Part shown: one piece after another, positions 24,356 through 45,616 of the stretch
Layout of the letters: each line of letters begins with the position of its first letter
Position numbering within the stretch: the first letter of the stretch is position 1
NCBI GenBank assembly: GCA_045612385.1
Contig: JAZKYZ010000039.1
Coordinates: 969 to 64,968 of the forward strand
From: Eubacteriales bacterium
GTDB lineage: Bacteria; Bacillota; Clostridia; Oscillospirales; CAG-272
DNA: 64,000 nt
Direction: 5' to 3'
The notes under the pieces: model-generated
Databases searched by the model: none
Told to the model about the DNA's origin: nothing
The model's input: the letters and a program-made list of their open reading frames with translations, nothing else
Position numbers and translations under genes: made by a program

Positions 24356-24430
24356 GCCTCCGTAGTAAAGTGGATATTACAAGTCCCTCCTAAGGATTAG
24401 TCGTGGGTTCGATTCCCGCCGGGGGTGCCA
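24356..24430 (+). tRNA. tRNA-Arg(CCU), intact element-borne copy
   Basis: GCCTCCG acceptor, D arm GTAA/TTAC, AGTCC-CTCCTAA-GGATT, GTGGG-TTCGATT-CCCGC, CGGGGGT-G-CCA; 75 nt. Confidence 0.93.
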
Positions 24431-25298: not shown

Positions 25299-26693
25299 TT
25301 AATCGAACAGTTCCTCAATCTTTTCTGCTGCTGTTCTGTCCGAACTTTTTAGGAAGTGGCTGTATATGTCGGTTGTGGTGCTGGTTCGTGCGTGGCCTGC
25401 TCGGCCTGCAACCGTCACCAGTGGGACGCCTGCTGCGATTTGCATCGTGATATTGGTGTGGCGTAGCGAGTGCACCGTTCTGTGCGGCAGTCCCGCCTGA
25501 TCGCAGATCTTATGTACCCAGTATGATATCGTGCCGGGATACATGACCTTTCCGTCCTCCGAGATGAACAGCCTGTTCGTCTCGTGCCATCGGTCACCAA
25601 CGTCGTATTTGTACTGATCGTACCATTCCTTGTACTCCATGAGCACCGCCACCAGCTTATCCGATATACTGATGACGCGTTTACTGCTCTCAGTCTTGGG
25701 ATCCTTTTCTACGAGGCCGACGCCTTTTACCGTTGTGACGGATCGTTCTATGGTGATCGTTCCTTCATCGAGGTCGACATTCGACCATTCCAGCCCGCAG
25801 AGCTCACCGCGCCGAATGCCTGTGAGCAGGAGTATGAGAGCTGCCGTTTTGCATCGCACATCCGGATACGCCAGCGCTGTTGCGTAGAATAGCTTGGCAT
25901 CTTCATCGTTCATGTAGTCGATTTCCTTCGATGGCCGCTTCGGGAAGTCGATGTAATCTGCGGTAGCGTAGTTATCGACGATAAGTCGCTGCTTCTTTGC
26001 GTGCGAGAGTATCGCGCGCAGCGTGCGCTTGATTTTGTGCATGGTCTCGTATGCGTATGGTTGCTTCTTCTTTTTCACATTGAATAGCGCTGTGGTGCGG
26101 CAGCCGAAGTTTTCTGCGATCTTTTCCGCCTGCTCTAGTCGGATGTTATCGCCGCGCAGAGCTGCCAGCAAAGGCCCGCTGTCGTAGTCCAATTTCTGTT
26201 TCAGTTTGCGCTCTCCGCGTCTCGCTGCGTCAACTACTTCTTGGAATTCCGGCTTGGCGCATACCGTAATGATGATTCTTTCGCGCCTGTCGAGCTCGTC
26301 GTAGAATCGCTGTATGATCGTCGGGTTGAGCTCGCGCAGCTTGTAGCCGCCAATGCTGGCGGCTATTTCTGTGATTGCGGATTGGCAGTTGACGTAGTAG
26401 CTGACCGACAGTTCTTCCTTGCGGCGCTCCAGCCACCATTTCATGTAGTCGGCCAGCGTGGTGTCGGGTGAGACACCATCGCCGCCTGCGGCCGTGAGGG
26501 ACATGCGCAGATTGTTTTCGTACTGATCCGCGTACACGATCACCTCACGCTCCATCTGCTTCGGCGTCATTCCCATTTGCGGCTTCCATGTGGTGGAATA
26601 GACATTCATCTTTCCGCTGCCTTTGTCCTTGAGTTTCACCTGTATGCGGTAGGTGGGACCGGATTTCGTCATTCGTTTCGTTATCGTTGCCAT
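25299..26693 (-). CDS. Tyrosine recombinase/integrase
   Basis: TGIRRGELCGL, K (PKT), HSLRHT, GHA, Y (DIYSH); arm-binding N-terminus. Confidence 0.95.
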   Translation of the reverse strand: MATITKRMTKSGPTYRIQVKLKDKGSGKMNVYSTTWKPQMGMTPKQMEREVIVYADQYENNLRMSLTAAGGDGVSPDTTLADYMKWWLERRKEELSVSYYVNCQSAITEIAASIGGYKLRELNPTIIQRFYDELDRRERIIITVCAKPEFQEVVDAARRGERKLKQKLDYDSGPLLAALRGDNIRLEQAEKIAENFGCRTTALFNVKKKKQPYAYETMHKIKRTLRAILSHAKKQRLIVDNYATADYIDFPKRPSKEIDYMNDEDAKLFYATALAYPDVRCKTAALILLLTGIRRGELCGLEWSNVDLDEGTITIERSVTTVKGVGLVEKDPKTESSKRVISISDKLVAVLMEYKEWYDQYKYDVGDRWHETNRLFISEDGKVMYPGTISYWVHKICDQAGLPHRTVHSLRHTNITMQIAAGVPLVTVAGRAGHARTSTTTDIYSHFLKSSDRTAAEKIEELFD

Positions 26694-26768
26694 ATCAATT
26701 CCTCCGTTTTATCGTCGTTATAGCAAGCCCTTGGCAACAACAAAGGAAGCCACAAAGGTCTGCAAAAG

Positions 26769-26972: not shown

Positions 26973-27006
26973 AAAAACTCCTTTCATATCTTGAAAACTT
27001 GAATGT

Positions 27007-27102
27007 GGGGGTATACCCCCTCTTGATTTCCCGATTTTTCGCGCGTGACTCCTCGCCCGTCTCACAAGCGAAAGTCGTAGAGATTTTGATCCCCCTACCC
27101 CC
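27007..27102 (-). other. cos-like packaging region
   Basis: Minus strand GGGGGTAGGGGGATCAAAATCTCTA...GAGACGGGCGAGGAGTCACGCGCGAAAAATCGGGAAAT...GGGGGTATACCCCC resembles the HNH-terS intergenic cos region of Bacillota cos siphophages. Confidence 0.6.
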
Positions 27103-27108
27103 GAAGGG

Positions 27109-27194
27109 ATGTCGCTGATGTAGCAAGTATTACAGGTCATTCTTATTTTTCATTCTATAGAGATGAACTTATAAACCTGCTACATCTGCGACGT
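27109..27194. repeat. Imperfect 20-bp inverted repeat flanking an AT-rich spacer, candidate replication origin
   Basis: atgtcgctgatgtagcaagt ... acctgctacatctgcgacgt, immediately after the primase stop. Confidence 0.55.
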
Positions 27195-27199
27195 GAAAA

Positions 27200-29356
27200 T
27201 TAAAGGGGCTGTGCGGTATCGAGAATTTTATATTTTAACAACATGGTGGTTTCGCTACCTCCACCTTTCGGGCGTTTGCGCACCACGGTCGCAAAGCCAC
27301 AAAGTGACTGCTTGAACTTCGTCATGCTCTCGGCACGATAGCCATTGTCCTCGCACCACCGCTGATATTCCTTATAAACATCTGCTGTGCGCACCTCGGC
27401 GTTATCGTCTGATTCAAGGCACTCATCCACAAAGCGCATGACCTTATCGCTGTCTTTGCGGTAGTCTTCGATTGCGTTTTTCGCCGTCTGCGGAAGCTTG
27501 AGTCCTTCCTTACGGAGCATTGCATATCCTTCCACCAGCCAATTGAGTATAGCGCTCTGACTGTTCGGGTGTGAGAAGAAAACTTTCAGGTTTGTGTCCT
27601 GCTCGCCCTCTCCAAAGTGGCGATCAAATGTAATAACGATAACTCGATCACTGCTAAAGAGCGTCAGATCGCTGATGGCTGGGCGGTAATTGGTGTTGAT
27701 GTACATTTTGAACTGCGGTCTGAAATCGAAGCTGTTTTCATGCAGGAAGCGGGCGTTCAACGTGTCGTTACCGGTCATGCTTTTAACGAGCGCTGCATCA
27801 AGGCGCAAATTGCGATCCGGCTCCGAAATATTGACAAATCGCACGCCTGCGAGACGCGCCACGTCTTCACTTGGCATTTGGCTGCTGCTGTTCTGTTTCA
27901 CGGCGATTGTTTCCGAGCGAGCGGTGCAACCATAGCTACCAAGCACCTTCAGTACGCTTTCGCAAAGTGTTCCTTTACCATTGCGCGTTGTGGCGCCGTA
28001 AAAGATGAAGAAGCACTCGTATCGTGTATCGCCGCTAAGACCATATCCAAGCACCTTCTGCAAGAAGCGAGCTTTTTCCTGATCTTCGCAGGTGATTTCC
28101 TGCACGAAGCGCTCAAAGCGCTCGCAGCGGGCTTCCGGATTGTAGATGACATCGGAGATTTTGGTGAGCTTGTCCGACGCCGTATGTGATGTGAATTTCA
28201 TGGTGTCAAGGTGCAGTGTTCCGTTCTGACAATTGAAAACGTAAGGATCGCTGTCGAATTCTTCCATGCGAATCTTATGTACGCCTTGCGCGTCCTTGAG
28301 TATGGTATCACGCATTTTGCGCGTCTGCCACTTGGCACAGAATTTCATGTACTCCTGACGCCTATTTTCGTCAACGATGGACATACAGTAAATCATCAGG
28401 TTTTTTGCAAGCTCCTTGCAATATTCCATAGTGCAAAGGGAGCCGATATCCTGCTGCCAAATTCCGTCTGCGTAATAGTACCAGCTTTTGCGCGCAGGCA
28501 CATAGCGGACAATGTTCTGATAATAATCCGCAAAGAGCTGTCCCGCGCCGAGCTCCGTCCACGGATAGAGTCTGTTTTCTTCCGGTTTCAGCTTTTGCAA
28601 ACATTCCTGCGGAGCTGCAAACTGTTCCGGCGGTACATATCCGTCCTCATCGGCTATGCGTACGCCGTATTTCTTCGCGTTCTGCCAAATGCTTTCCAAC
28701 TCCGCCTGTTCGAGCGGGGGCACGCATTTGAGCGCCTCCACATCGAATTGCGCTCTCGCTATGCCTGAGTCACCGTGGCGTTTAATGAGCTTGCACGCCT
28801 TAGAGAGAAGCGCAGCGTTGCGTCCTCCCGCCAGAATGAACAGTGAGTCCACCGTGGCTTGTCCTTCGAACATCATCACCTGCGGCGCCGCCACACCGAA
28901 CATAAAGCGTCCTGCATCAAGCGCGTTGGCGTCAAATTCGGGGAATCTTCGTTGGATCTGTTTCTTCAGCTCCACGTACTGCTTGGCATTGTCGATGCGC
29001 TGAATGGGAAAATAAACGTGGAATTTCGGGCGAGCCGCCTTGCCTTTCTTGACCTTCATGTGATTGCGACTGTAACTGACTGCAAACGCTACATCGGGAA
29101 ACGCCAAGCGTACATCTTCCGGTGTTTTCCATGCGGCCGGATCATCGCTGTGATCGTTATCGCAATCCATCGGAATGCAATCAGAGTACAGAAAATTCTC
29201 GTTGCCTCTGCAATCGTTCTTGTACTTGGCGCAAACGTGATCGCGACGCATAGCCTGCTCCAGTGCACGAAGATCGGTGATCGGCGCCTCGTTGGGATAG
29301 TTTTTGTTCTGCGGAACCTCGGTAGTGTTAGCGGTGTAAAGAGTGAATTGCATCAC
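27200..29356 (-). CDS. Primase-helicase, phage/plasmid P4 family (prim-pol N-terminus, PriCT, D5_N, SF3 ATPase)
   Basis: DCDND and KFHVYF prim-pol motifs, GGRNAAL PriCT, FNCQNG.L.L, TRNGKGT Walker A, ARFLHENSFDF.PQFK. Confidence 0.9.
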   Translation of the reverse strand: MMQFTLYTANTTEVPQNKNYPNEAPITDLRALEQAMRRDHVCAKYKNDCRGNENFLYSDCIPMDCDNDHSDDPAAWKTPEDVRLAFPDVAFAVSYSRNHMKVKKGKAARPKFHVYFPIQRIDNAKQYVELKKQIQRRFPEFDANALDAGRFMFGVAAPQVMMFEGQATVDSLFILAGGRNAALLSKACKLIKRHGDSGIARAQFDVEALKCVPPLEQAELESIWQNAKKYGVRIADEDGYVPPEQFAAPQECLQKLKPEENRLYPWTELGAGQLFADYYQNIVRYVPARKSWYYYADGIWQQDIGSLCTMEYCKELAKNLMIYCMSIVDENRRQEYMKFCAKWQTRKMRDTILKDAQGVHKIRMEEFDSDPYVFNCQNGTLHLDTMKFTSHTASDKLTKISDVIYNPEARCERFERFVQEITCEDQEKARFLQKVLGYGLSGDTRYECFFIFYGATTRNGKGTLCESVLKVLGSYGCTARSETIAVKQNSSSQMPSEDVARLAGVRFVNISEPDRNLRLDAALVKSMTGNDTLNARFLHENSFDFRPQFKMYINTNYRPAISDLTLFSSDRVIVITFDRHFGEGEQDTNLKVFFSHPNSQSAILNWLVEGYAMLRKEGLKLPQTAKNAIEDYRKDSDKVMRFVDECLESDDNAEVRTADVYKEYQRWCEDNGYRAESMTKFKQSLCGFATVVRKRPKGGGSETTMLLKYKILDTAQPL

Positions 29357-29568
29357 TGCACACCACCTCCTTCCGTTCCTGCAGGCTGGCCGTTCAGCTC
29401 TTTAGCAGCTGCGTCGATCGCCTGCATTACTTTTTCTTTTTGCTCTCCATCGAGCTCGCGGCGAAGCATGCGCGACAAGCTCTCCGGAGAAATTCCGAGC
29501 TTCGAGGCGATTTGCCAGAAATACACACCGCGCTCGATAGCCTTTATTCGAATGTCTTTGTTTTTCAT
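29353..29568 (-). CDS. Small XRE/Cro-like HTH regulator
   Basis: GVYFWQIASKLGISPESLSRMLRREL; translationally coupled to the primase (ATGA overlap). Confidence 0.8.
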   Translation of the reverse strand: MKNKDIRIKAIERGVYFWQIASKLGISPESLSRMLRRELDGEQKEKVMQAIDAAAKELNGQPAGTEGGGVQ

Positions 29569-29917: not shown

Positions 29918-31330
29918 ATATTAACTCCTTAACTGGACACCTAATGACCAGTTAAGAAAAGTTTTCGTGTTTTTATATTTTAATTTCTAAATGGCTCACC
30001 TAAAGAACCATTTAAAATTTTTATTTGAACGTATTTTACAGGCTTAACTGTTCACCTAATGAACACCTTTTCAAAATTTTATCGATTAAAGGTGTCACCT
30101 AATGGCATCTTTGAAAAAATATTTTCTATATTGTACCGGTTAACCTGCCAACCTAATTGGCACCTTAAATTCTTTTTTGAATTTTATCTCTCAAACCTGA
30201 CACCTGATGTCATGTTTGAAATATTTCTTGGACTAATTTTAAAACCTAAACTGCCAACCTAATTGGCAGTTATAGAAAATATTTTCTGTTGACGAGGGAA
30301 TTATATCTTCCAAAGTGCAAGATTTTCCTTACACTTTTAAACTGTTTTTCCTGTTCCGCCGTAATCTTAACAATTAAGTAGCTCACCTAATGGGCTACTT
30401 ATTAAAAGTGTTGAAAAATATTTGGTGCGGCGGGGCCGTATTGGCTTTACGAAAGCATCTTATCAATTAACCTGCCCACCTAATGGGCATCTTTTCGAAA
30501 AAATTATAAAATTCAAACTCGACACCTTTTGTCGACTTCGAAAAAATTTTATCTGCCAAATATGCAACCTAATTGCATATTTGAAAAAGTTTTCTGATTT
30601 TTTCACATTATAAATTTCAAAGCGGAAACCTAATTTCCTATTTGACAAAGTTTTTTCGTTTTTCACATTATAATTTTTAATGTGGAAACCTAATTGCCAC
30701 TTTAAAAAGTTTTTTGCTGTTTTTTAGTTCCAAGACATCCTATCACGCCTTCGGTTCACCTAATGAGCCGAAGATTTTTTATATTATAATTTTCAAACAT
30801 TCACTACGGAGATGTATGTTTGCTTTGTTTTTCTGAATTATATCGCCCCTTGTGTTCACCTAATGAACACAAGAGGAATTTCTTTAATGTTTTTGTACTG
30901 ACAGTTTACGACGGATTGGTGTCACCTAATGGCACCAATCCAAATATTTTTTTACCACTGCGCACATTTTATCGAATAACCTGGACACCTAATGTCCACC
31001 TTTTTCATTTTCTTTCAAATTTTACAACGAAAGTACGACACCTAATGTCGTACTTAATCATCTTTTTCAATGATTTTATACTGTAAGTGGGACACCTAAT
31101 GTCCTACTTGATCATTTCGCAAAAATTTTATCAGGCTTGTGGACATCTAATGAACACAAGCGCAAACTTCTTTCTTTTTTCGAATTATACCGCGCCTTGT
31201 GCCAACCTAATTGGCACAAGAAAAAATCTTTTGAAGGAATTTTACATCGTAAAGTACCAGCCTAATTGGTACTTTGAAAAAATCCTTGTAAAAATCATAT
31301 CGTGCAAAGTATGAGGTTTTATCACACTTT
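29918..31330. repeat. Array of 22 variable-stem hairpins with a conserved CCTAA loop, plus 3 loop-variant units
   Basis: Loops start at 29940, 29999, 30055, 30098, 30152, 30203, 30258, 30386, 30479, 30525, 30568, 30629, 30689, 30759, 30859, 30925, 30988, 31041, 31095, 31146, 31206, 31261; no credible ORF. Confidence 0.92.
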
Positions 31331-32555: not shown

Positions 32556-33494
32556 TTAGTCTTTTCCAATTGGTTCTAATTCTGTTTTTACGGTGCTATC
32601 ATATTCTGCATCTGTCAACTCTGACTTCAATATGCTATCATTGAGCATTCTTAAAAATGCCGCAGCTTGTTTTTGGTTGTTGATTTGAATTTTTCCATCG
32701 GATATTACAAAAATGCCTTTGTATCGCGGCAACGTGCCAAGTTTATCCAATAGCACAGCTTTCTTCATTCTTAATACAGGCGAGTTCTTTGCTTTATATA
32801 ACTTTTTGGCGTTCGTAAGAGCGCTTTTGTCAGCCAACACTAAAAACTTATCAATACCAGAAACAATTTCCATTTCCGATATGTACTGTATTGTTTTTTG
32901 GGCTTCTCCACGTATGAATGTTTCGAAAAGGAACACCCTTTGCATAAGTTCAATTTTTGTCGTTATGATTGAAGTTCCAATGATCAAGCAATCTATTTTA
33001 CGCTCTATTTTCAAAATATCATCCTTCAACGATGTATAAACTCCACCTGAAATAATCGCGTAGATGTTTTTGCTTTTTTTGATCAATTGTGGATAGTTGA
33101 CTTGCTGATATATCCAGAAATATGTATCGTTTACATTTATTCTAAATGCAAAACCTATCAAAAAGTCAAGATCACTTTCGCTGTATTTATCCGACACTGC
33201 GCCGTAACTGTTTAAAAAATCGAACGGGGAATACTCGGCGGTTTGCGGAATTTCATAAAAAACTTTTCTGTTATCATCGATATTTTCTGCTCTATCCAAT
33301 TTTGCGGAATCGCAGAGAAACTGATTCTCTAATACGGTTTTCAACATACTAGAAACTTTTGAATTTAAAGCATCATCCAAAATGAATTTTTTTAAAGAAA
33401 ACGCGTCATCCTTTTTTATGACCGCAAAAGCGCTCACGCCATATTCCGTATGGATAATTCGTTTTATATGTTCTTTCATTTCTTGAGTGTTCAT
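32556..33494 (-). CDS. kwaB: Kiwa anti-phage protein KwaB (DUF4868-like)
   Basis: 312 aa; ILKIERKIDCLI, FLRMLNDSILKSELT..EYD C-terminal pattern; coupled to a KwaA-like gene. Confidence 0.75.
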   Translation of the reverse strand: MNTQEMKEHIKRIIHTEYGVSAFAVIKKDDAFSLKKFILDDALNSKVSSMLKTVLENQFLCDSAKLDRAENIDDNRKVFYEIPQTAEYSPFDFLNSYGAVSDKYSESDLDFLIGFAFRINVNDTYFWIYQQVNYPQLIKKSKNIYAIISGGVYTSLKDDILKIERKIDCLIIGTSIITTKIELMQRVFLFETFIRGEAQKTIQYISEMEIVSGIDKFLVLADKSALTNAKKLYKAKNSPVLRMKKAVLLDKLGTLPRYKGIFVISDGKIQINNQKQAAAFLRMLNDSILKSELTDAEYDSTVKTELEPIGKD

Positions 33495-34072
33495 TTTTTC
33501 ATTCCTTTCACGAACAGAACATCTTGGGTGATATCCTTATATTCGACATTGTGCTTATCATCTATTTCCCCGTGTGATATAGCCATGTATGTTCCAGTGC
33601 CTTTTTCCTCGCTGTCAATAAATACTATTTCCGTAACATGATACCCTAATATCGATAGAACCGGGTTTGCGTAAAACAATCTCGTTTTTGCCATTAACAA
33701 CCAAGTAAATATCAGAATGGAGAAAAATGTTATAACGCCTTGCCACGTATTGATATTATCGATTAACAACGGGAGAATGAGCGTAAAAAAGAAATTCAAA
33801 CTGGCATCTTCTTTCTTTTCAACTGTTGCAACAGAATACCCTTGTTTTCTATCTGCGTATTTGAATGCATTGAAACTGATTATGAAGATTATTGCTAAAA
33901 TGCACCATATTGCGCAGACAAGCATAGTACAAAGCAAAGGCAAATTAGCAGAAATAAATTCTTTTATAGAGAGCCCTACCCCAGCCTCGTCTTTGGTTAC
34001 AAAACACCAATTTTTAATTATTGTTAGAAAAGCGATGGGACTTAGCGATTGTATCATTAATTGTTTTTTCAC
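33491..34072 (-). CDS. kwaA: Kiwa anti-phage membrane protein KwaA
   Basis: Multi-TM 193 aa with SLSP, LNFFFTLILPL and FYANPVLSILGY. Confidence 0.75.
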   Translation of the reverse strand: MKKQLMIQSLSPIAFLTIIKNWCFVTKDEAGVGLSIKEFISANLPLLCTMLVCAIWCILAIIFIISFNAFKYADRKQGYSVATVEKKEDASLNFFFTLILPLLIDNINTWQGVITFFSILIFTWLLMAKTRLFYANPVLSILGYHVTEIVFIDSEEKGTGTYMAISHGEIDDKHNVEYKDITQDVLFVKGMKK

Positions 34073-34158
34073 ATTCGTTACTCCTTCAAGATGACAAGTT
34101 GCTCCGTTTTCGTAAATAATATTTTATCCAAGCAGCTATCTAAAGTGTTTATACAATA

Positions 34159-34950
34159 TTAATATAAATCTTTCAGCTGCTCGTAAGTAATATCTATGCC
34201 TATCGAGCGAAGCAGGTCACGTCTTTTTTCGTACAGTGGTCTTAATACTGAGTCTATATCGGCACCGTAGTGCAACCAGTTATGGCATCCACTACAAAGT
34301 GATACGACATTTTGTTCTCTATCCAAATCGACATTCGGGAACAGATGAGCAGCATGCAACGGAACTAAATGGTGTGGTTCCGTGTAATTAAGGTTGCTGT
34401 TTTTCCTTTTGAAGAGCTGGTGCTGTTCGCTGACCTCACACATAAAACATGCTTTGCTTAATGCATTTTTGGCAACCGTTCTGCTGCGCGGATATCGTTT
34501 CATTTCAACAGAAGAAATCATCTTAGGGGGTCTCGGCGTATTATCATACTCGAAGGGAACGGGCGACGAATAAACTACATCATCATTTAACGACTCTATA
34601 AATTCCTGTTCTTCGATAATATCACGAGATTCCGCACGCTTGCCTTGTTCTTGTACCAATATTTCTTTGGCTCTTTTGCGCGACTCAGCATCGACACGCT
34701 CGCTTGCAATTATTATTTCAAGTGCCTCTAATTCCTGTCCGTGTGCAAATATGTGTCTTGCTCTAGGGATTCGAAATCCTTGCCGCGATGATCTTGCGCG
34801 AGGGCTTTCTCGTAGTATTTTTTCAGCCAGCACATCGGTAGGGATCGTAGCGTCCTTGAAATCATAATAAAAGCGCACAAAAGCGGCTTTTCCTATGGCA
34901 TTTAATGTTTCTTCCAAACTGCCATATTTAGTATCGTTATACTGCGACAT
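34159..34950 (-). CDS. HNH endonuclease (McrA-like)
   Basis: CE...YTEPHHLVP...NVVSLCSGCHNWLHYG. Confidence 0.85.
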   Translation of the reverse strand: MSQYNDTKYGSLEETLNAIGKAAFVRFYYDFKDATIPTDVLAEKILRESPRARSSRQGFRIPRARHIFAHGQELEALEIIIASERVDAESRKRAKEILVQEQGKRAESRDIIEEQEFIESLNDDVVYSSPVPFEYDNTPRPPKMISSVEMKRYPRSRTVAKNALSKACFMCEVSEQHQLFKRKNSNLNYTEPHHLVPLHAAHLFPNVDLDREQNVVSLCSGCHNWLHYGADIDSVLRPLYEKRRDLLRSIGIDITYEQLKDLY

Positions 34951-34996
34951 TTTGCTCCTCCTTTGCTAAAGCGAGCGTGACGATGAATAAGATCGT

Positions 34997-36271
34997 TTAT
35001 TCTCCTAACGCCTTGTCTAGCTTCATTATTTGAAGGAAAATACCTTCCAAAAGTCTTACCGGAATACTGTTACCCGCCATTCGAATAAGCTTGTCTCGTG
35101 GGAACAAACAACTATTCTTACGAACTTCAGGGTTGTTTTTAATAACGTTATCGTAATCTTCGTCCGTGAATCCCATGAAAAGGAAACACTCGCGTGGTGT
35201 TAAATACCTAAATGTCCCGCGTCCGGCGATACCCGACTCAAAATAGAGGTTGCCCGAATTGGGATTGCGATCTTGCTTGGTAGTGATTGTTCGAATAACG
35301 TCGATATCCGGATTAATAGTGCCGTTCTCCAAAACAATCTGAGGGTTTTCATTCCATATCTCGCGGCGAGATACGGTGTCGTTGGGGGTACACGCTACGG
35401 CCTCGTCGAACAATCTCCGATTGCCATAGTCGATGCGCAACAATTCACTAACCGAGGTTTTGCGATAATATTTCGATTGTTGGTATTCTTTGACAACGGT
35501 TGTCTCCGTCTTGGATTTCCAATACGAAATCACCTTTTGTTTTAATACCTCATCATCTCCAACGTACACGCTGACCATTAACAAACGCGGTCTGTTTTGG
35601 GGCAGTCCGAAAGCGCTTGCATTCAACTGAAAGTATTTGCTAACATAGCCTAGCGCTTCCAAGTCGGAAATCCAGGTTTCAAAATTACCCTTGTGTCTAT
35701 CGGAGAGTAGCGTAGGTACATTCTCCAAAAGCAAGTATCTCGGCATGGATTTTCCTGCCTCGTTCATTTCCTGCAATATGCGTCCTACCTGCCATAACAA
35801 ACTGGAGCGGCTGCCAGAGTCCTTGTCAATACCTTTGGTATATCCGTGGAACGCACCAACGTTTGAAAGGTCCTGACAAGGGAATGAATATGTAAGAATA
35901 TCAACATCCTCTGGCATGCTGCTCCCGTTCAAGGAGCTTACATCTACGAAATTATTGTTTCTTCTTACAGCAGCGTAAACGCGGCGCAATACTTCAACAG
36001 AATATGTTTTCAGTACTTTATAATCCATTTTCTCTTTGCCGTTGTTGCTAAGCACGAAGGGCTCCAAGAAAGAGAGCAGCTGTTCTTTTGTCATTGCCTT
36101 TACATCATCGGGGAGTTCCGGCGACGCATGAATCGCGTCATAAGCAATAAACGCATGTATATCCCATTCGCATATACCCAGCGTGTTAACTGTACAGCCG
36201 AGGTTTTTAAGGGCTTTGGCTTGGCTGCCTATACCACTAAACAGCTCAACTAAATTGTAAGTATGATTCAT
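34997..36271 (-). CDS. DNA (cytosine-5)-methyltransferase
   Basis: Motif I ELFSGIG, IV FPCQ, VI ENV, VIII QNRPR, IX RYLTPREC, X AGNSI. Confidence 0.95.
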   Translation of the reverse strand: MNHTYNLVELFSGIGSQAKALKNLGCTVNTLGICEWDIHAFIAYDAIHASPELPDDVKAMTKEQLLSFLEPFVLSNNGKEKMDYKVLKTYSVEVLRRVYAAVRRNNNFVDVSSLNGSSMPEDVDILTYSFPCQDLSNVGAFHGYTKGIDKDSGSRSSLLWQVGRILQEMNEAGKSMPRYLLLENVPTLLSDRHKGNFETWISDLEALGYVSKYFQLNASAFGLPQNRPRLLMVSVYVGDDEVLKQKVISYWKSKTETTVVKEYQQSKYYRKTSVSELLRIDYGNRRLFDEAVACTPNDTVSRREIWNENPQIVLENGTINPDIDVIRTITTKQDRNPNSGNLYFESGIAGRGTFRYLTPRECFLFMGFTDEDYDNVIKNNPEVRKNSCLFPRDKLIRMAGNSIPVRLLEGIFLQIMKLDKALGE

Positions 36272-38535
36272 GAGATTTTTATACCCTCCGCTTCAAGCTT
36301 GCTCTCCACCTCAAGCGCAAGCTTGATGGATGCCATTATCTTCGATGGCACCTTACCGGAACTTGAAGCAGGTACGTTACCTGTTTGTGCCATGGTTATA
36401 AGCTGCTTAATTGCAGTCTGTTCTTGATACGATACCAATGATTTCTGAAGCCCTATCGTCATGACCTTCGTCCAGTAGTCAGCTCCTTTTGCAACGGCGT
36501 TCATTACAAACATCAAATCATTGGTTTCTTTTTGCTCGGATTTTGCTGCGCTTTCCTGCTGGCGGATGATTGATTCAGGCATCAACTCGTCCAAGAACTC
36601 TGCTGACAGCGAATACGGAACACTGTCTCTAAATTCTTCCCATGTAGAAAGGCGCTTGCAGTATTCGGTAACAATTACACCGTGGCTATCGCAGATGAAG
36701 TCGTTAGCGATTTTGGTGACACGTTCCACCTCGCGCATAAATGCAGGCGATACCGACTGCTTCTGCCATATTCTGCCCCAGTCGAGTGTGTATCCCGAGG
36801 GAATAGAAGACAATATTTTTGCTATGGTATACGGGACAATATTGCCCTTATAACCACCAGTCTTATACCAAAATCCTGTGGGCTTTTTGGCACTGTCTTT
36901 GTGGGACTCCAAATAATCATCAACCGCTTGGAAAATGATAGCTGCGCAGATGCATTTCTTGAAATAAAATTCGTTGAAATCAGCTCTGCTCGATTTATAC
37001 ATGTTGCCAATAGCAATTGCAAATTCCTTGAACACCCAGTTTTTACCCTTAGATACAATGTGTGGTTTGCAATCGAGCGCGGTCATATAAACCGCAAGCT
37101 TTTCTTTTGTAATAAGTTGTTTCTTGGGAAATTTCGATGCGAATCGCTTGGCTTCCTCTCCGCCCAGCTTGAACTGTTCCTGTTCATAACGTTTTCTGGA
37201 ACGCTCATAGTACCATCCGGTGGGAATTGCGTACAATGCCGGCGGTGCCAAATGTTTCTTTGACATCTTTTCCATCCAAATATGGAAGGGGTCGTTAGAG
37301 AATAGGTCTGCAGCAGTAACTTTATTTTGGCTGTTCGCGTACTTCGCAATAGCTTGTACCATCTGATCATAGAATCGAATGCCATCTTCGTCCTCGGATT
37401 CGCGATCTTCGATGACGGTGATTTTCATCGGAACGAATATACCATCCAAATTCATATTTGCAGATTTTTTTAAGATTGCTTCAGCCAAAGATGCTGTTGT
37501 TTGGCCGCCGTTAATGATCTGCAAATCAACAATCTGAGTAATGTAGAGTTCACCATCTATGCGCTCAACTGTGACGTCTGCCGCCGTGGTTGCTATGCCG
37601 TTATTGTAAGTGAAAAATTTAGTAGGATCCGTGTTAATGGTCCGTCTAATGCCGTTATTAACATTATCCTTTTTCTGTGATACTCCTAAAAAGGCACGAA
37701 CGTTTCCTTCCAAGACCTTGCTGCCATGCTCGATATAAATACTTGCCAACAATCTTCCGGGAATAATTGCAATGTACGCCTCGTAACCGAGATCATCACC
37801 AATATTACCCTTAATACAAGGAATACCTTCATATCCCAATTCAGGAAAATCGTTTTTAATATCAATTACGATAGGCTCGTTGCTATTGGAATTTTCCATT
37901 TCAAAGAAACGTTCCAAGTGCCACAAACTAATTTCCAACGGTTTACCATTAAAATCAGCCTTTTTAATTTTCTTGGTGGTTTTAGTGGTTTTGGCTTTGC
38001 CTTTTTTCTTTCGGATAGTTGTCTCAAGCAGATTCTTATCCAAAAGTCTTGTGCTTAACTCTTTATTGGTGATGATATAAAATTTGATTTTCAGAAGCAT
38101 GTCCGGATCGTCGCCAACTGCATTGATGCGACGGCGAATCAAACGCGCCACCTTCAATATGTCGTCAGAAGCGTCGAAACAATCCTCCATGTTTCCGTTG
38201 CATACTTCATCGAGGAAGTTATATAAGCGCCAATAGAGATCGTCTACACGTGTTTCTGTTAGATTTTCAGTGTTAAAAGTATCCTGAAAATCGCTGATGA
38301 AAAGGATAAGGCTGCGATCCACTTCGTCAAAGCTATATCCGTCGATTCTCATTAAACTTTTGTTTTTTCTTGCCTTGTCACCCATTCCAACACGGACGGG
38401 ATCCTCGATCTCACTGAAATCCGAAAGAATATCGAGCGTTCTATTTAAGAATTCATCTTCGGTCTCGGCGCCGCTGATCGCGGATTCATCGCGCAAAGAT
38501 TGCAAAAAATCGCGTTTATATTCCTGATAATCCAT
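36268..38535 (-). CDS. AIPR family protein
   Basis: LEGNVRAFL, FFTYNNGI, QIINGGQTTASL, NSQNKV. Confidence 0.92.
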   Translation of the reverse strand: MDYQEYKRDFLQSLRDESAISGAETEDEFLNRTLDILSDFSEIEDPVRVGMGDKARKNKSLMRIDGYSFDEVDRSLILFISDFQDTFNTENLTETRVDDLYWRLYNFLDEVCNGNMEDCFDASDDILKVARLIRRRINAVGDDPDMLLKIKFYIITNKELSTRLLDKNLLETTIRKKKGKAKTTKTTKKIKKADFNGKPLEISLWHLERFFEMENSNSNEPIVIDIKNDFPELGYEGIPCIKGNIGDDLGYEAYIAIIPGRLLASIYIEHGSKVLEGNVRAFLGVSQKKDNVNNGIRRTINTDPTKFFTYNNGIATTAADVTVERIDGELYITQIVDLQIINGGQTTASLAEAILKKSANMNLDGIFVPMKITVIEDRESEDEDGIRFYDQMVQAIAKYANSQNKVTAADLFSNDPFHIWMEKMSKKHLAPPALYAIPTGWYYERSRKRYEQEQFKLGGEEAKRFASKFPKKQLITKEKLAVYMTALDCKPHIVSKGKNWVFKEFAIAIGNMYKSSRADFNEFYFKKCICAAIIFQAVDDYLESHKDSAKKPTGFWYKTGGYKGNIVPYTIAKILSSIPSGYTLDWGRIWQKQSVSPAFMREVERVTKIANDFICDSHGVIVTEYCKRLSTWEEFRDSVPYSLSAEFLDELMPESIIRQQESAAKSEQKETNDLMFVMNAVAKGADYWTKVMTIGLQKSLVSYQEQTAIKQLITMAQTGNVPASSSGKVPSKIMASIKLALEVESKLEAEGIKIS

Positions 38536-38545
38536 TTTGCGCCTC

Positions 38546-39463
38546 CTATTCTTTTATTTCGAATGCTCCTATTTCAACCAAGGAGATTTCGTACATTGCT
38601 TTTCTAATTGCCGTGGGAAGATCTCGCGGTGTCAGCTTGGGGAATTCTGCACAAACACGATATCTCTTAAAGCTGTTGATTTCATATACGAAATCATCGT
38701 AATAATTGTTATATTCGTATCCTTGCAATGCGACTTTCGCCATAAACGCGTCGCGTTCTTCACCGTCTTGAAACATGTTACGCGTTTCCAAAATCAACTT
38801 GTTCAAAGTGATTCCGTTATAGGCTGTGCTCATTTTCTCAAGACTGTAAACCGCAAGTTCGCCCTCGTTGTCACTGTCGAGCTGCTCCAACGAGGAGATT
38901 TTAACACTTTGCGCGCCTCGACTGATCGACTTTGCTTCAATCCATGTATCTCCAAACGAGAAGTCCTTGTGCGTAAGCTCTTGCCCACTCCAGCTATCTA
39001 AAGCCTCTACCAGTCCTATGCGAGAAGCTAAATGTCCGCGCATTACAAGAATTTCTCCGATAAGTCCCATGATTTCAGGCTCCGTCAGGAAATTATTTTT
39101 AGATGAAACAAACATTTTCTTCCACTGAAAGAAGCGGCTAACAATAGCGGTGTATCCTTCGCTTTTATCTTTGACGCTTCTCGTCTGCTCGATTAAGTCG
39201 TCACAGAATTTATAAAATAGTCCGCTGATATCATCATCGCAAAGAGAGAATCGAATAGTATTGTAATCGGCGCGTTTATATTGGTTTACCTCAATCGCAG
39301 ATGTGCCAGTGACCTTACGCGGCGTAAACGACGCACGAAGCTCTATGGCCTTTCTACCTTTATCGTCGAGTCCAATATGTAACTCCAAAATATGATCAGT
39401 ATCTACGCGCGAAAAATAATTGGCATTTGTAAATTTTGCAAAAAGTTCGCGAGAGTCGATCAT
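38546..39463 (-). CDS. PD-(D/E)XK motif protein (DUF4420-like)
   Basis: GLIGEI...W.G....KDF......EAKS...VKISSLEQL. Confidence 0.85.
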   Translation of the reverse strand: MIDSRELFAKFTNANYFSRVDTDHILELHIGLDDKGRKAIELRASFTPRKVTGTSAIEVNQYKRADYNTIRFSLCDDDISGLFYKFCDDLIEQTRSVKDKSEGYTAIVSRFFQWKKMFVSSKNNFLTEPEIMGLIGEILVMRGHLASRIGLVEALDSWSGQELTHKDFSFGDTWIEAKSISRGAQSVKISSLEQLDSDNEGELAVYSLEKMSTAYNGITLNKLILETRNMFQDGEERDAFMAKVALQGYEYNNYYDDFVYEINSFKRYRVCAEFPKLTPRDLPTAIRKAMYEISLVEIGAFEIKE

Positions 39464-42294: not shown

Positions 42295-42295
42295 A

Positions 42296-43777
42296 TCATT
42301 CCTCCAACAGTTTAACTTTTAACTCCGGGAAGTTGTTGAAAGGTTCGGAATTGAAAAGTCTTTCTATAATGGATGCTTTGTCACTGTCTCCCATAGCTGC
42401 GGCCATCGAAATTAGAATGCGAGCCTTCGCTTCAATTTCAGCAATTCTTTCAGTATCAACGGTGTCTGCAATACGGTTCTGTGATTTATCAATGTAAATT
42501 TGCTGATATGGCAGCGCTCCTTCAATTTCTTCAAGTACCATATCGATGCGCGCCCATGTTTCGTCATCTACCTTAGAACGAATCAAATCGAAAATTTGTG
42601 CATCTCGATTAATAACAAACGTGTGCTGATCCTCACGTGTCTTGATCGGCAGCCATATATAATCGATTTTGTCATCCTCCGTATCTACACGGCCACGGAA
42701 CTTTTGCGCTTTTATTGCAATATCCATCGCCTCATCAACTGCTCTCGTCAAACGTTTGCGAATCGATGCAGGGATTCGTGCGCTCTGCTTTTTAATATCT
42801 ATCCCCCAAATGTCATCGAGGGAGTTGGGGATGTCAACACGGATGCGTGCATATTTGGTAAGCTCATCACGGTGTCTTCCGAACCAGTTACCCCAGACGA
42901 TCAATCGTTCGTTGCGGTACACGTAGAAACCTTGCTTGGAGCGGTAGTTTTCTATGCCGCCCGACAGACGCTTGTCTTCCGGAGACAAGTCTTTTTGGAA
43001 AGGCAAAACATACGGCTGGACGACAACCATTCTCTCGATGCCTTCAGAATCTTCAATCGGAATTTCGATTCTTTTTCTAACATTGGTTTTAATGTGATTT
43101 TCAAGGAACGGATCCATCCCCTTGAGCGCAAAGTTATTGATCTTTATATTGATTTTCGCTGCTCCGGCTTTGTTCAAAAATCTATGAAAAATTAAAGAGA
43201 GGTATTCGGCAGTTTCGTCTTGATAACGATTGAGTTCGGCGTATATGTTGCCGGATGATTTTTCGATCAAATCGAAATTCTCCCAGACAACAATCGTGCC
43301 ACTGTCCAAATTATCAAGCCACGAAATTTGTTTGATAGACGAAATTTCCAGCGGGGTGCACTCGATCATATACCAATCTTTTTTATCGAGGATTACATCC
43401 AAGTCCCATATATAAGCGGATACCTCACCATTTTTCTTGCTGGCAACAGTAAGTCTGCGGCACTGAGAGAGGGAGGCAGCCTTCAATCCCAAACCAAAGC
43501 GACCGAGATCGTCCTCTGCTCTGTGGCCACGTTTTTGCTCGCTGCCGTACTTCATGGCGTCAAACAATTCTTCGCGAGTCATACCATAGCCATCATCACA
43601 AATAGCAACATAGCAATCAAGCGGATCAATAGGAAAACGAAGCCATATATTATGCGCGGACGCACTAATACTATTGTCGATAATATCTGCAATAGCGCTT
43701 TCGAAAGAATATCCCATGGCTCGCATGGATGTCATCAATATATCAGCTGTCGGTTTATTTTCTCTCAAATTTTCCAT
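42296..43777 (-). CDS. MORC/MutL-type GHKL ATPase
   Basis: DIIDNSISA, DDGYGM, GRFGLGLKAAS, GFYVYRNERLI. Confidence 0.92.
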   Translation of the reverse strand: MENLRENKPTADILMTSMRAMGYSFESAIADIIDNSISASAHNIWLRFPIDPLDCYVAICDDGYGMTREELFDAMKYGSEQKRGHRAEDDLGRFGLGLKAASLSQCRRLTVASKKNGEVSAYIWDLDVILDKKDWYMIECTPLEISSIKQISWLDNLDSGTIVVWENFDLIEKSSGNIYAELNRYQDETAEYLSLIFHRFLNKAGAAKINIKINNFALKGMDPFLENHIKTNVRKRIEIPIEDSEGIERMVVVQPYVLPFQKDLSPEDKRLSGGIENYRSKQGFYVYRNERLIVWGNWFGRHRDELTKYARIRVDIPNSLDDIWGIDIKKQSARIPASIRKRLTRAVDEAMDIAIKAQKFRGRVDTEDDKIDYIWLPIKTREDQHTFVINRDAQIFDLIRSKVDDETWARIDMVLEEIEGALPYQQIYIDKSQNRIADTVDTERIAEIEAKARILISMAAAMGDSDKASIIERLFNSEPFNNFPELKVKLLEE

Positions 43778-45571: not shown

Positions 45572-45616
45572 CCTCCTAAGGGTTAGTTATGGGTTCGATT
45601 CCCGTTGCGGGTGCCA
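45572..45616 (+). pseudogene. 3' half of the host tRNA-Arg(CCU) (attR)
   Basis: CCTCCTAA-GGGTT-AGTT-ATGGG-TTCGATT-CCCGT-TGCGGGT-G-CCA, with no 5' half upstream. Confidence 0.9.

What the first reader, a model, noticed from the sequence alone, without database searches (positions are those of the whole stretch)
29918..31265. Each array unit has a minus-strand TAnnnT exactly 16 nt from the loop: a possible tandem non-canonical promoter bank
Seen in sequence: on the minus strand each unit reads TTAGG-N16-TAnnnT (TAAAAT, TATAAT, TAAGAT, TACAAT, TAAACT, TAGGAT, TAATAT). The spacing is 16 nt in 21 of 22 units (15 at 31146) regardless of stem length, and A/T tracts lie upstream. Established: TAnnnT is the sigma70/A -10 core; T4 middle promoters replace -35 with a MotA box near -30; N4 virion RNA polymerase reads template-strand hairpins. 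Inference: these may be about 22 promoters with no TTGACA and a hairpin/cruciform centred near -31, all pointing at the replication/excision operon. They could sense, or titrate away, a helper-phage activator, sigma factor or RNA polymerase.
Basis: partly seen in the sequence, partly recalled or inferred. Interest (0 to 1): 0.88.

Follow-up and report, generated by a model that had tools for sequence, protein, structure and literature searches.

The report
Bank of phage-type promoters on a defence island
A mobile anti-phage island carries 22 tandem copies of the special promoter-plus-operator that related gut phages place, once each, in front of their replication genes, so the island probably listens for, and soaks up, the early regulators of many different phages.

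Summary
Window 29918-31287 holds 22 units. Each has a 25-bp palindrome with a conserved 5-bp centre (CCTAA on +, TTAGG on -) and a minus-strand TAnnnT exactly 16 nt away in 21 of 22.

The units are probably not hairpin promoters. The same module occurs once per locus in front of a 113-aa HTH_11/DeoR-like winged-helix gene that heads a phage replication operon. In 78 such loci the hexamer lies 30-43 nt before the start codon. The regulator's recognition helix changes together with the palindrome arms, so the palindrome is a dimer operator.

Its geometry equals that published for the related regulators DriD (half-sites 7 bp apart) and PafBC (element, N10, -10, no -35).

The window's array sits in a 21-kb tRNA-Arg island with Kiwa and AIPR/Z1 defence genes, upstream of a decayed regulator gene, a PrimPol-helicase and an integrase. 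It combines many operator specificities. Arrays occur only in such islands.

Best reading, inferred and untested: a multi-specific sensor and decoy bank for phage early activators.

The parts
29918..31287 (-). Array of 22 promoter-operator units (u01 nearest the operon, u22 farthest), all oriented to fire towards lower coordinates
29918..29966 (-). u01: palindrome 29930-29954, -10-like hexamer 29918-29923; 25 nt before the start codon of the first ORF, with a ribosome-binding site between
29977..30025 (-). u02: palindrome 29989-30013, hexamer 29977-29982
30033..30081 (-). u03: palindrome 30045-30069, hexamer 30033-30038
30076..30124 (-). u04: palindrome 30088-30112, hexamer 30076-30081
30130..30178 (-). 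u05: palindrome 30142-30166, hexamer 30130-30135
30181..30229 (-). u06: palindrome 30193-30217 (variant centre), hexamer 30181-30186
30236..30284 (-). u07: palindrome 30248-30272, hexamer 30236-30241
30298..30353 (-). Possible decayed 23rd unit in the 128-bp gap between u07 and u08 (weak model match, 26.7 bits, E 0.016)
30364..30412 (-). u08: palindrome 30376-30400, hexamer 30364-30369
30457..30505 (-). u09: palindrome 30469-30493, hexamer 30457-30462
30503..30551 (-). u10: palindrome 30515-30539 (variant centre), hexamer 30503-30508
30546..30594 (-). u11: palindrome 30558-30582, hexamer 30546-30551
30607..30655 (-). u12: palindrome 30619-30643, hexamer 30607-30612
30667..30715 (-). u13: palindrome 30679-30703, hexamer 30667-30672
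30737..30785 (-). u14: palindrome 30749-30773, hexamer 30737-30742
30837..30885 (-). u15: palindrome 30849-30873, hexamer 30837-30842
30903..30951 (-). u16: palindrome 30915-30939, hexamer 30903-30908
30966..31014 (-). u17: palindrome 30978-31002, hexamer 30966-30971
31019..31067 (-). u18: palindrome 31031-31055, hexamer 31019-31024
31073..31121 (-). u19: palindrome 31085-31109, hexamer 31073-31078
31125..31172 (-). u20: palindrome 31136-31160 (variant centre; its distal arm equals that of u15 and pairs poorly), hexamer 31125-31130 at spacing 15
31184..31232 (-). u21: palindrome 31196-31220, hexamer 31184-31189
31239..31287 (-). u22: palindrome 31251-31275, hexamer 31239-31244; its 25-bp palindrome is identical to the single operator of phage-type loci L208, L210, L212 and L238
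29605..29892 (-). First ORF of the operon (95 aa): decayed homologue of the phage HTH_11/DeoR-like regulator. It has no Pfam hit and internal deletions; pN/pS against L092 is 0.58
29353..29568 (-). Small HTH protein, 71 aa (phrog_17740). It is also present in related islands that lack the units
27200..29356 (-). PrimPol/D5-type primase-helicase, 718 aa (D5_N, Pox_D5, DUF5906; phrog_1883)
25299..26693 (-). Tyrosine integrase, 464 aa
31362..31397 (-). Intrinsic terminator of the upstream (DUF6809/DUF7678) genes, just before the array
24356..24430 (+). tRNA-Arg(CCT); left end of the island
45590..45604 (+). 15-nt direct repeat of the tRNA 3' part; probable right end of the roughly 21-kb island
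32556..43777 (-). Defence cargo of the island: KwaB-like (32556-33494), C5 methylase (34997-36271), AIPR (36268-38535), DUF4420 (38546-39463), Z1 (39460-42294), HATPase_c_3 (42296-43777)

Best explanation
Each unit is a 'hybrid' promoter. It has a sigma-A-type -10 (TAnnnT), no -35, an A5-N-T5 upstream tract, and a 25-bp palindromic operator centred at about -31. A small phage-encoded winged-helix regulator (113 aa, HTH_11/DeoR-like, related to the DNA-binding domain of YafY/DriD/PafBC) binds the operator as a dimer. The variable palindrome arms are the two half-sites read by the recognition helix. The promoter-proximal half-site sits exactly where the '-26 element' of PafBC-dependent promoters sits. 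The regulator most likely activates by standing in for the -35 contact, a mechanism like 'sigma adaptation'. Phages carry one such unit in front of the regulator gene and their replication module. The window's 21-kb defence island has collected 22 units with many different arm specificities in front of its own primase-helicase/integrase operon, and it has let its own regulator gene decay. The array would therefore be silent until a phage of any of the matching types expresses its early regulator. That regulator would then (i) switch on the island's replication and recombination genes and (ii) be drawn away from the phage's own single promoter. Shown here: the anatomy, the spacing, the phage origin of the module, the helix-arm co-variation, the restriction of arrays to islands, and the conservation of the palindromes. 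Inferred: binding itself, activation rather than repression, and the sensor/decoy function.
For: (1) Position as a promoter. In 78 regulator-linked loci the unit is the only candidate promoter between an upstream terminator and a strong ribosome-binding site. The hexamer ends 30-43 nt before the start codon (30-37 nt in all but L212 and L213). The spacing from centre to hexamer is 16 nt, and the hexamer is nAnnnT in 77 of 78 and TAnnnT in 65 of 78.

(2) A covariance model built only from the window's 22 units hits 63 of 85 regulator loci. It hits once each, at that place and in that orientation, except in the island L200, which has 4 hits.

(3) Phage origin. Downstream of the regulator lie DUF2800 nuclease, Enc34-type SSB and family-A polymerase (L176 and L211). 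41 loci lie on IMG/VR viral contigs. Only 1 of 44 metagenome loci (L200) has the island's helicase and integrase.

(4) Operator. The variable residues of the recognition helix (residues 33-41) sort with the arm class over 48 distinct pairs. L208, L210 and L212 are only 65-76% identical overall but have the same helix class and identical 25-bp operators. L172 and L174 are 84% identical but differ in helix and arms, with 5 of 12 helix-region residues changed against 12 of 94 elsewhere. L103 and L200 behave likewise.

(5) Homology and geometry. Pfam gives HTH_DeoR at 4.6e-10 and HTH_11 at 1.9e-8, with a weak HTH_PafC hit. The AlphaFold model is a winged HTH plus two helices, pLDDT 87. The DriD operator has inverted half-sites 7 bp apart with an AT-rich centre, as here. 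PafBC promoters lack a -35 and have a 6-base element, N10 and then the -10, as for the proximal arm here (paper passages).

(6) Link to the regulator, not the helicase. Among the 12 closest full-length helicase relatives (L092-L101, L104, L105), only the 2 that carry a regulator gene or its remnant (L092, L095) have units. The other 10 lack the gene and have no model hit. L103, more distant at 56% identity, also has both. L094 has an ordinary -35/-10 promoter instead.

(7) Arrays only in islands. The window has 22 units, L092 19, L200 about 11 by eye (7 found by script, 4 by the model) and L103 about 5 by eye (3 by script). Every phage-type locus has 1.

(8) The array arms resemble sampled phage operators more than permuted arms do. 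The mean best match is 9.18 of 12 against 8.20 (sd 0.22), reached in 0 of 300 permutations. 9 of 22 units match at 10 of 12 or better, against 4.2 expected.

(9) Purifying selection on the palindromes without a regulator in cis. Between the window and L092, arms differ at 4-5% and centres at 3.7% of positions, against 16% in the A/T tract and 12.5% in the spacer. The regulator remnant has pN/pS 0.58, against 0.05-0.07 for its neighbours. No intact regulator was found in the own assembly, which is 97.5% complete.

(10) Same-genus genomes G226 and G229 hold the regulator with a unit upstream. G228 holds the regulator, but the model found no unit in its locus.
Against: There are no transcription data: no RNA run holds the stretch, so no start site is shown. 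Binding of the regulator to the palindrome is inferred from co-variation among related sequences; no test that corrects for phylogeny was made. Relatives in the same protein family (BrxR and CapW, as described in a passage read) are repressors encoded first in their operons, and a dimer covering -43 to -19 could simply occlude RNA polymerase. The regulator lacks the WYL and WCX domains of DriD and PafBC. Several array units have arms of two different classes (u04, u08, u13, u16, u20), which a homodimer should bind poorly. Only 9 of 22 units match a sampled phage operator at 10 of 12 or better. The conserved asymmetric centre is not explained by a symmetric dimer. The -10 hexamers of the array are closer to consensus than those of the phages (5.0 against 4.15 matches of 6, my hand count). 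This could mean the array fires without any activator. No packaging or capsid gene marks the island as a satellite.
Confidence: 0.55

Rival explanations
1. The anatomy is the same, but the regulator is a Cro-like or BrxR-like autorepressor. The units are then constitutive -35-less promoters whose operators are blocked by the phage protein. In the island the array acts purely as a sponge that titrates phage repressors, or as a strong constitutive promoter stack that phage infection shuts off.
For: The operator covers the -35 region and the spacer (geometry). The regulator is the first gene of its own operon, as passages of the paper read describe for the WYL-family repressors BrxR and CapW. The array hexamers are near consensus. 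The A5-N-T5 tract could serve as an UP element that makes an activator unnecessary.
Against: The spacing of exactly 16 nt between operator centre and -10 holds in 77 of 78 loci, down to 42% regulator identity and across different centre sequences. A repressor needs only overlap, whereas an activator needs register. The phage hexamers are poor (4.15 of 6 on average), with no -35 and no extended -10. The geometry equals that of the activator PafBC. Constitutive firing of 22 promoters into a primase-helicase and integrase operon would be costly for an integrated island.
Confidence: 0.2
2. The complementary arms must extrude as a DNA hairpin or cruciform, or fold in single-stranded DNA or RNA, and the conserved loop is read in that form by an RNA polymerase, a sigma factor or another protein.
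For: Complementarity is strong, with changes on both sides. Two orthologous units differ from L092 by pair-preserving double changes (u07 pair 2 and u21 pair 3). The centre is the most conserved part.
Against: Arm classes follow the recognition helix of the adjacent regulator, which a free hairpin would not require. The half-site spacing equals that of a solved duplex operator. Between the window and L092, single arm changes outnumber double ones by 10 to 2, and 5 of them break a pair. There is no clear strand bias in wobble-type mismatches: 7 G-T against 3 A-C. In more distant phages the centre changes freely while the spacing stays. No Rfam family matches. In single-unit loci the palindrome lies upstream of the inferred start, so it would not be in the RNA.
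Confidence: 0.07
3. The array is the island's replication origin: iteron-like sites plus AT-rich unwinding tracts for the PrimPol-helicase. It may be activated by transcription, with promoter plus AT-rich tract forming R-loop origins as at phage T4 origins (recalled, no call).
For: It lies next to the primase-helicase operon and is AT-rich, with about 33% G+C from the composition printed. No other iteron set was seen in the 500 bp after the helicase gene. Each unit is a promoter followed by an A/T tract.
Against: Units track the regulator gene, not the helicase. Ten helicase relatives at 62-70% identity have none, and about 70 phage loci with a different replication module (polymerase A) have one. 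Iterons of one initiator should share a sequence, whereas these arms differ.
Confidence: 0.08
4. The array has no function of its own. It is debris from repeated recombination between the island and phages at the shared promoter, or a slippage-expanded repeat.
For: Unit number differs between close relatives: 22 in the window against 19 in L092, with different units in the promoter-proximal third. u20 carries an arm copied from u15. Metagenome contigs join non-adjacent units (weak).
Against: Palindromes and centres are 3-4 times better conserved than the tracts between them. The -10 letters are kept in 21 of 22 units. Arrays recur in islands whose helicases are only 55-65% identical (L103, L200).
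Confidence: 0.07

Closest known systems
PafBC-dependent 'sigma adaptation' promoters of mycobacteria (Mueller et al. 2021, PMC8635444; abstract and passages read)
   Same: Both have a canonical -10 and no -35. An activator element lies 10 unspecified bases upstream of the -10. The activator's DNA-binding domain is an HTH_11-type winged helix. One arm class here even begins with the letters of the published element.
   Different: PafBC is a heterodimer of roughly 300-aa WYL/WCX proteins. It binds a non-palindromic site with one subunit only and is switched by single-stranded DNA. Here the protein is a 113-aa phage protein without a WYL domain, on a full palindrome. Activation is inferred, not shown.
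DriD operator of Caulobacter (PMC10853764 and PMC9186387; passages read)
   Same: A homodimeric winged-HTH activator of the same superfamily binds a 21-bp palindrome whose conserved half-sites are 7 bp apart across an AT-rich centre. That centre is barely contacted and is read indirectly. The spacing is the same here: 2 closing bp on each side... in total the 5-bp centre plus one closing base on each side gives 7 between the core half-sites.
   Different: DriD promoters keep -35 and -10 elements. DriD has WYL and WCX domains and a ssDNA ligand. Its sites are single, not arrayed, and of one specificity.
Phage-inducible islands and satellites that read helper signals (SaPI/PICI Stl derepression, P4 activation by helper Ogr/Cox, PLE; recalled. 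Listings and abstract starts only seen for PMC9122126, PMC8989297, PMC11846896)
   Same: An integrase plus replication module at a tRNA site, with anti-phage cargo and expression apparently tied to a phage-made protein.
   Different: Known islands use one repressor or one activator site per helper signal. None that I know of, or found, stacks some 20 heterospecific operator-promoters. No packaging or capsid-redirecting gene was seen here.
T4 middle promoters (MotA box near -30) and PhoB-type promoters (recalled, no call)
   Same: The -35 is replaced by an activator site centred near -30, with a normal -10.
   Different: The proteins are unrelated. MotA needs AsiA, and the sites are not palindromic.
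Phage-encoded resistance (Per) in lactococci: cloned phage origins that titrate replication factors (recalled, no call)
   Same: Phage cis-acting DNA carried by the host as a decoy that blunts infection.
   Different: Per is a laboratory construct of one origin on a multicopy plasmid. Here the DNA is a natural chromosomal array of many specificities, and it is also wired to an operon.

Membership tests
Sigma-70/A-type promoter (-10 element) | TAnnnT hexamer with A at position 2 and T at position 6 nearly invariant | tested here: met
   T21 A22 a15 a18 a20 T22 of 22 units; nAnnnT in 77 of 78 related loci
Sigma-70/A-type promoter (-10 element) | Sensible distance to a ribosome-binding site and start codon | tested here: met
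   The hexamer ends 30-43 nt before the start codon in the single-unit loci (30-37 nt in all but L212 and L213), and 25 nt for u01
Sigma-70/A-type promoter (-10 element) | -35 hexamer 16-18 bp upstream | tested here: not met
   No minus-strand consensus pair was found. The region is occupied by the palindrome centre, whose sequence varies in distant phages
Sigma-70/A-type promoter (-10 element) | Transcription start about 7 nt downstream | not testable with these tools
   No RNA run holds the stretch
PafBC-type hybrid ('sigma adaptation') promoter | Canonical -10, no -35, activator element separated from the -10 by 10 bases | tested here: met
   The proximal arm starts right after the 5-bp centre. 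Its first 6 bases plus 10 more reach the hexamer, a total of 16, matching the consensus quoted
PafBC-type hybrid ('sigma adaptation') promoter | Activator is a WYL-domain protein (wHTH + WYL + WCX) | tested here: not met
   The protein is 113 aa with HTH_11/HTH_DeoR only. The model shows a wHTH plus two helices
PafBC-type hybrid ('sigma adaptation') promoter | Activator inserts between DNA and sigma domain 4 | not testable with these tools
   Needs biochemistry or cryo-EM
DriD-type palindromic operator | Inverted half-sites 7 bp apart, AT-rich centre | tested here: met
   4 of the 5 centre columns on the + strand are A or T in 20-22 of 22 units
DriD-type palindromic operator | Half-site sequence read by the recognition helix | tested here: inconclusive
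   Helix class and arm class co-vary in 48 distinct pairs, but this is correlation among related sequences and no binding assay was done
DriD-type palindromic operator | Regulator is a homodimer | tested here: inconclusive
   The complex prediction gave no verdict
Phage satellite / PICI | Integrase, replication module, att site at a conserved locus | tested here: met
Phage satellite / PICI | Packaging or capsid-redirecting genes; induction by a helper | tested here: inconclusive
   None appeared among the island proteins scanned, but several ORFs have no family hit. Induction is not testable here
Iteron replication origin | Repeats of one sequence bound by the element's own initiator and found with that initiator | tested here: not met
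   Arms differ between units. Ten related helicase loci lack them
N4-type hairpin promoter / structured RNA family | Short template-strand hairpin near the start site (recalled), or a match to a curated RNA family | tested here: not met
   The palindrome is centred at -31 and has a 10-bp arm. No Rfam match reaches a gathering score

The most novel reading that the evidence does not exclude
The array is a heritable, expandable library of phage operator alleles. The island captures the promoter-operator module of each phage lineage it meets, by recombination at the shared module. It keeps the modules under selection without any regulator of its own. It uses them both as a tripwire, in which any matching phage activator switches on the island's replication and integrase genes and amplifies its defence cargo, and as a sponge that starves the phage's single early promoter. 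That would be a memory of past phages held at the level of transcription-factor binding sites.
Probability: 0.3. Interest if true: 0.92.

Novelty: new variant of a known kind. Interest (0 to 1): 0.8.

Why it matters
If right, this finding does three things.

First, it defines a family of minimal, 113-aa phage activators or regulators whose recognition helix and operator arms diverge together. That is a natural specificity code for an HTH_11 winged helix, with about 20 helix-operator pairs already readable from sequence.

Second, it extends the '-26 element' hybrid-promoter design, known from mycobacterial PafBC, to phages of gut Clostridia.

Third, it shows a new way for a mobile defence island to couple itself to many phages at once: by stacking their promoters rather than by encoding a receptor protein.

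The proposal is directly testable with reporters and purified proteins. It would also supply orthogonal regulator-promoter pairs for synthetic biology in Firmicutes.

Tried and rejected
Tandem Repeats Finder sees only two short stretches (periods 60 and 54), because the units are too diverged.

Rfam gave no family at gathering score, only three chance-level rows.

CRISPR, toxIN-like RNA arrays, integron attC sites, REP elements, oriT banks and CsrB-like protein sponges were considered from the anatomy. I dropped them once the single-copy phage context was found.

A pattern scan of IMG/VR for one unit gave 71 loci with one match each and no arrays, which is chance level.

The helicase has only 32% identity or less to deposited phages.

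Replication-origin reading: I looked for iterons after the helicase gene and found only weak two-copy repeats. See the rival explanations.

Expression: no RNA holder is listed. Laying four runs (two DNA and two guessed RNA, all as contigs) gave only short low-depth pieces at 85-99% likeness. There were several joints between non-adjacent units. These may be array variants, other organisms or repeat mis-assembly, so I draw no conclusion on expression or polymorphism.

Dimer prediction of the regulator: no verdict.

Foldseek against the PDB gave only generic winged-helix hits with E of 2e-3 or worse. The top hits were Z-alpha domains, and PafBC and DriD chains appear far down the list. The PDB sequence search likewise gave only generic HTH hits.

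Literature: full-text search for the 9-letter centre motif gave 309 papers; the 15 I saw listed were unrelated. A search for DUF6809 or DUF7678 gave 0 papers. A search on satellites, helper phages and activators listed 12 of 23 papers, none describing operator or promoter arrays judging by title and abstract start. My claim that such a bank is not in print rests on these three searches alone.

They might refine the comparison of spacing.

A stray unit in relative G023 (L010) and two in G102 were seen. The unit on G102 contig C2 lies just upstream of a regulator gene; the G023 unit and the one on G102 contig C9 were not followed up.
Full report
**What is there.** Window 29918-31287 is an AT-rich, non-coding stretch of about 33% G+C (from the composition). 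It holds 22 head-to-tail units 43-128 bp apart. When the units are aligned on a 5-nt centre (CCTAA on the + strand, TTAGG on the - strand), four phase-locked features appear.
- A 10-bp complementary arm lies on each side of the centre. The arms are 90.0% paired, against 53.9% in shuffles, and 9 of the 10 pair positions show changes on both sides.
- Near-invariant closing pairs lie next to the centre.
- On the minus strand a hexamer lies 16 nt after the centre, with counts T21 A22 a15 a18 a20 T22 of 22.
- On the other side there is an A5-N-T5 tract, itself palindromic.

No other offset exceeds 7 of 22. The regional frequency of the pattern is 3.4%, which gives P of about 2.5e-30, and shuffles of the inter-palindrome letters reach at most 5. 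A simple consensus scan finds no minus-strand -35/-10 pair. The array is unique in the 1.89-Mb assembly.

**Surroundings.** All genes around the array are on the minus strand. Downstream of the array, towards lower coordinates, lie in order:
- a 95-aa ORF that starts 25 nt after the hexamer of u01, behind a good ribosome-binding site;
- a 71-aa HTH protein;
- a 718-aa PrimPol/D5-type primase-helicase;
- a tyrosine integrase.

Upstream lie an intrinsic terminator and DUF6809 and DUF7678 genes. A tRNA-Arg(CCT) gene at 24356-24430 and a 15-nt repeat of its 3' part at 45590 bracket an island of about 21 kb. The rest of the island encodes a KwaB-like protein, a C5 methylase, and AIPR, DUF4420, Z1 and HATPase_c_3 proteins. 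This is a mobile anti-phage defence island.

**Relatives of the island.** Using the helicase as query, 80 loci were fetched from one genome per species. A covariance model (R1) built only from the 22 units hit three of them:
- L092 (helicase 96% identical) has 17 hits, and 19 units by inspection.
- L095 (65%) has 1 hit.
- L103 (56%) has 3 weak hits, and about five units by eye.

Ten other close relatives at 62-70% identity (L093, L094, L096-L101, L104, L105) have none. L094 has an ordinary -35/-10 promoter at the same place.

L095 and L103 differ from those ten in having an intact 113-aa first gene with HTH_DeoR (4.6e-10) and HTH_11 (1.9e-8) domains. The 95-aa ORF of the window and of L092 is a decayed copy of that gene. 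It has deletions and no Pfam hit, and its pN/pS between the two islands is 0.58, against 0.07 and 0.05 for the next two genes. In L095 and L103 the last unit lies so that the hexamer ends 32-33 nt before the start codon of that gene. This was the first sign that a unit is simply that operon's promoter.

**The module belongs to phages.** Searching metagenome contigs with the regulator gave 44 loci, and searching IMG/VR gave 41 loci on viral contigs of up to 70 kb. Only one of the 44 (L200) has the island's helicase and integrase. In the two loci I annotated (L176, L211) the regulator is followed by DUF2800 nuclease, Enc34-type SSB and a family-A DNA polymerase, which is a phage replication module.

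In 78 loci with enough upstream sequence there is one unit directly before the regulator gene, between a terminator and a strong ribosome-binding site. The centre-to-hexamer spacing is 16. The hexamer is TAnnnT in 65 of 78 loci and nAnnnT in 77 of 78. The distance to the start codon is 30-43 nt, and 30-37 nt in all but L212 and L213. R1 hits 63 of the 85 loci, once each, except island L200 with four hits. By eye L200 has about eleven units.

In the more distant phages, with regulators 42-50% identical, the 5-nt centre has other sequences while the spacing is kept. Same-genus genomes G226 and G229 carry the regulator with its unit, as does G102 of the same order; G228 holds the regulator, but the model found no unit in its locus. 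The window's own assembly has no intact regulator by protein or by profile search.

**Palindrome: operator, not hairpin.** Across 48 distinct regulator/operator pairs, the variable residues of the predicted recognition helix (residues 33-41; model pLDDT 87) sort with the class of the arm sequence.
- L208, L210 and L212 are 65-76% identical overall yet share the helix class and an identical 25-bp operator.
- L193, L199 and L203 behave likewise, as do L182, L192 and L194.
- L172 and L174 are 84% identical but differ in 5 of 12 helix-region residues, against 12 of 94 elsewhere, and have different arms.
- L103 and L200 behave in the same way.

A homodimer reading two half-sites explains why both arms change together, so no extruded structure is needed.

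The published DriD operator has conserved inverted half-sites 7 bp apart across an AT-rich centre that is scarcely contacted (PMC10853764, passages). The units have the same layout.

Other points go against a structural role:
- Wobble-type mismatches show no clear strand bias (7 against 3).
- Between the window and L092, single arm changes outnumber pair-keeping double changes by 10 to 2.
- In single-unit loci the palindrome lies upstream of the inferred start.

I did not test the co-variation with a method that corrects for shared descent, so it remains a correlation.

**How the unit probably works.** With the hexamer at -12 to -7, the palindrome spans -43 to -19, its centre is at -31, and the proximal arm begins 16 nt before the hexamer. 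PafBC-dependent promoters have a canonical -10, no -35, and a 6-base element followed by ten bases and then the -10. PafBC's winged helix sits on that '-26 element' and bridges to sigma domain 4 (PMC8635444, abstract and passages).

The proximal half-site here is in exactly that register. The regulator's domain is of the same Pfam family, with a weak HTH_PafC hit at 7.7e-4 for L103. The phage hexamers are poor, with 4.15 of 6 matches to consensus by my hand count. The register is conserved over the whole family. A repressor needs only overlap, whereas an activator needs register.

I therefore favour activation at about 2 to 1. Repression, as in BrxR and CapW of the same superfamily (passage), is not excluded.

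**What the array is.** The 22 units carry at least six or seven arm classes. Compared with 40 distinct operators sampled from phage-type loci, the mean best match over the 12 variable arm positions is 9.18, against 8.20 (sd 0.22) when mirror pairs are permuted among units; 0 of 300 permutations reach the observed value. Nine units match at 10 of 12 or better, against 4.2 expected, and u22 is identical to the operator of four loci.

Between the window and L092 (16 orthologous pairs), arms differ at 4-5% and centres at 3.7% of positions. The hexamers differ at 7%, the 6-nt spacer at 12.5% and the A/T tract at 16%. So the operators are kept by selection in islands that have no working regulator.

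Arrays were found only in islands: the window 22, L092 19, L200 about 11, L103 about 5 and L095 1. Phage-type loci have one. Among 250 other genomes of the genus and order, none has an array. G023 has one stray unit and G102 has two on separate contigs.

The array hexamers are closer to consensus than the phage ones, at 5.0 against 4.15 of 6 (hand count).

**Reading.** The island has stacked phage early promoter-operators of many specificities in front of its replication and integrase genes and has dropped its own regulator. The simplest function is twofold. A phage that expresses a matching regulator turns the island's operon on, which is sensing. Its regulator is also spread over extra sites, which is titration.

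Weak points:
- There is no transcript evidence.
- Binding and the sign of regulation are inferred.
- Five units have arms of mixed class.
- The conserved asymmetric centre is unexplained.
- Nothing shows that the island is packaged by these phages.

**Rivals.** These are a repressor sponge (0.2), a hairpin-dependent promoter (0.07), a replication origin (0.08) and non-functional recombination debris (0.07). Each is set out in its own entry with the result that would refute it.

**Novelty.** Hybrid promoters with a -26-type element, palindromic operators of this winged-helix family, and phage-responsive islands are each known. A tandem bank of about twenty heterospecific operator-promoters was not found in three literature searches, and I do not recall one. 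I file it as a new variant of a known kind. The bolder reading, a heritable library of phage operators, gets a probability of 0.3.

Noticed in passing
window 24356-45604: A roughly 21-kb island lies between tRNA-Arg(CCT) and a 15-nt repeat of the tRNA's 3' part. It carries a KwaB-like gene with a 193-aa neighbour (possibly KwaA), and a C5 methylase + AIPR + DUF4420 + Z1 + HATPase_c_3 cluster. All genes are on the minus strand.
   Followed up: partly
window 30298-30353: A weak model match (26.7 bits) lies in the long gap between u07 and u08. It looks like a decayed unit with an enlarged centre.
   Followed up: no
window units, +16..+26 from each centre; also L176 about 3904-3928 and L212 about 3896-3920: The A5-N-T5 tract next to the distal arm is itself a palindrome and is conserved in the phage loci. 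It could be an UP element or a second protein site.
   Followed up: no
L010 (G023) 751-805 and 1501-1555: Isolated unit-like palindromes lie in a same-genus genome, next to a tRNA 3' end and between small cargo genes (a GNAT gene and a MerR-like HTH gene). No regulator gene is nearby, and one has a variant centre.
   Followed up: no
L200 3330-3970; L103 4960-5400: Related islands with an intact regulator have arrays of about 11 and about 5 units. In both, a 59-aa gene and a terminator precede the first unit, whose arms are the same in the two islands.
   Followed up: partly
window 31146 unit (u20) against u15: The distal arm of u20 is identical to that of u15 and no longer pairs with its own proximal arm, whereas the L092 orthologue pairs perfectly. 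This is a sign of exchange between units.
   Followed up: partly
model m38b14936bb93: The best Foldseek matches of the regulator's winged helix are Z-alpha (Z-DNA-binding) domains (E 2.4e-3, TM 0.83 over 62 residues). This is probably generic fold likeness.
   Followed up: no
window 30079-31251: Contigs of two gut-metagenome DNA runs join non-adjacent units or carry other letters between them. These may be array variants in other strains or assembly artefacts of the repeat.
   Followed up: no
window 26694-27199: The 500-bp gap between the helicase and integrase genes holds a 30-nt imperfect inverted repeat (27111-27192) and no clear iterons. The island's real origin was not located.
   Followed up: partly
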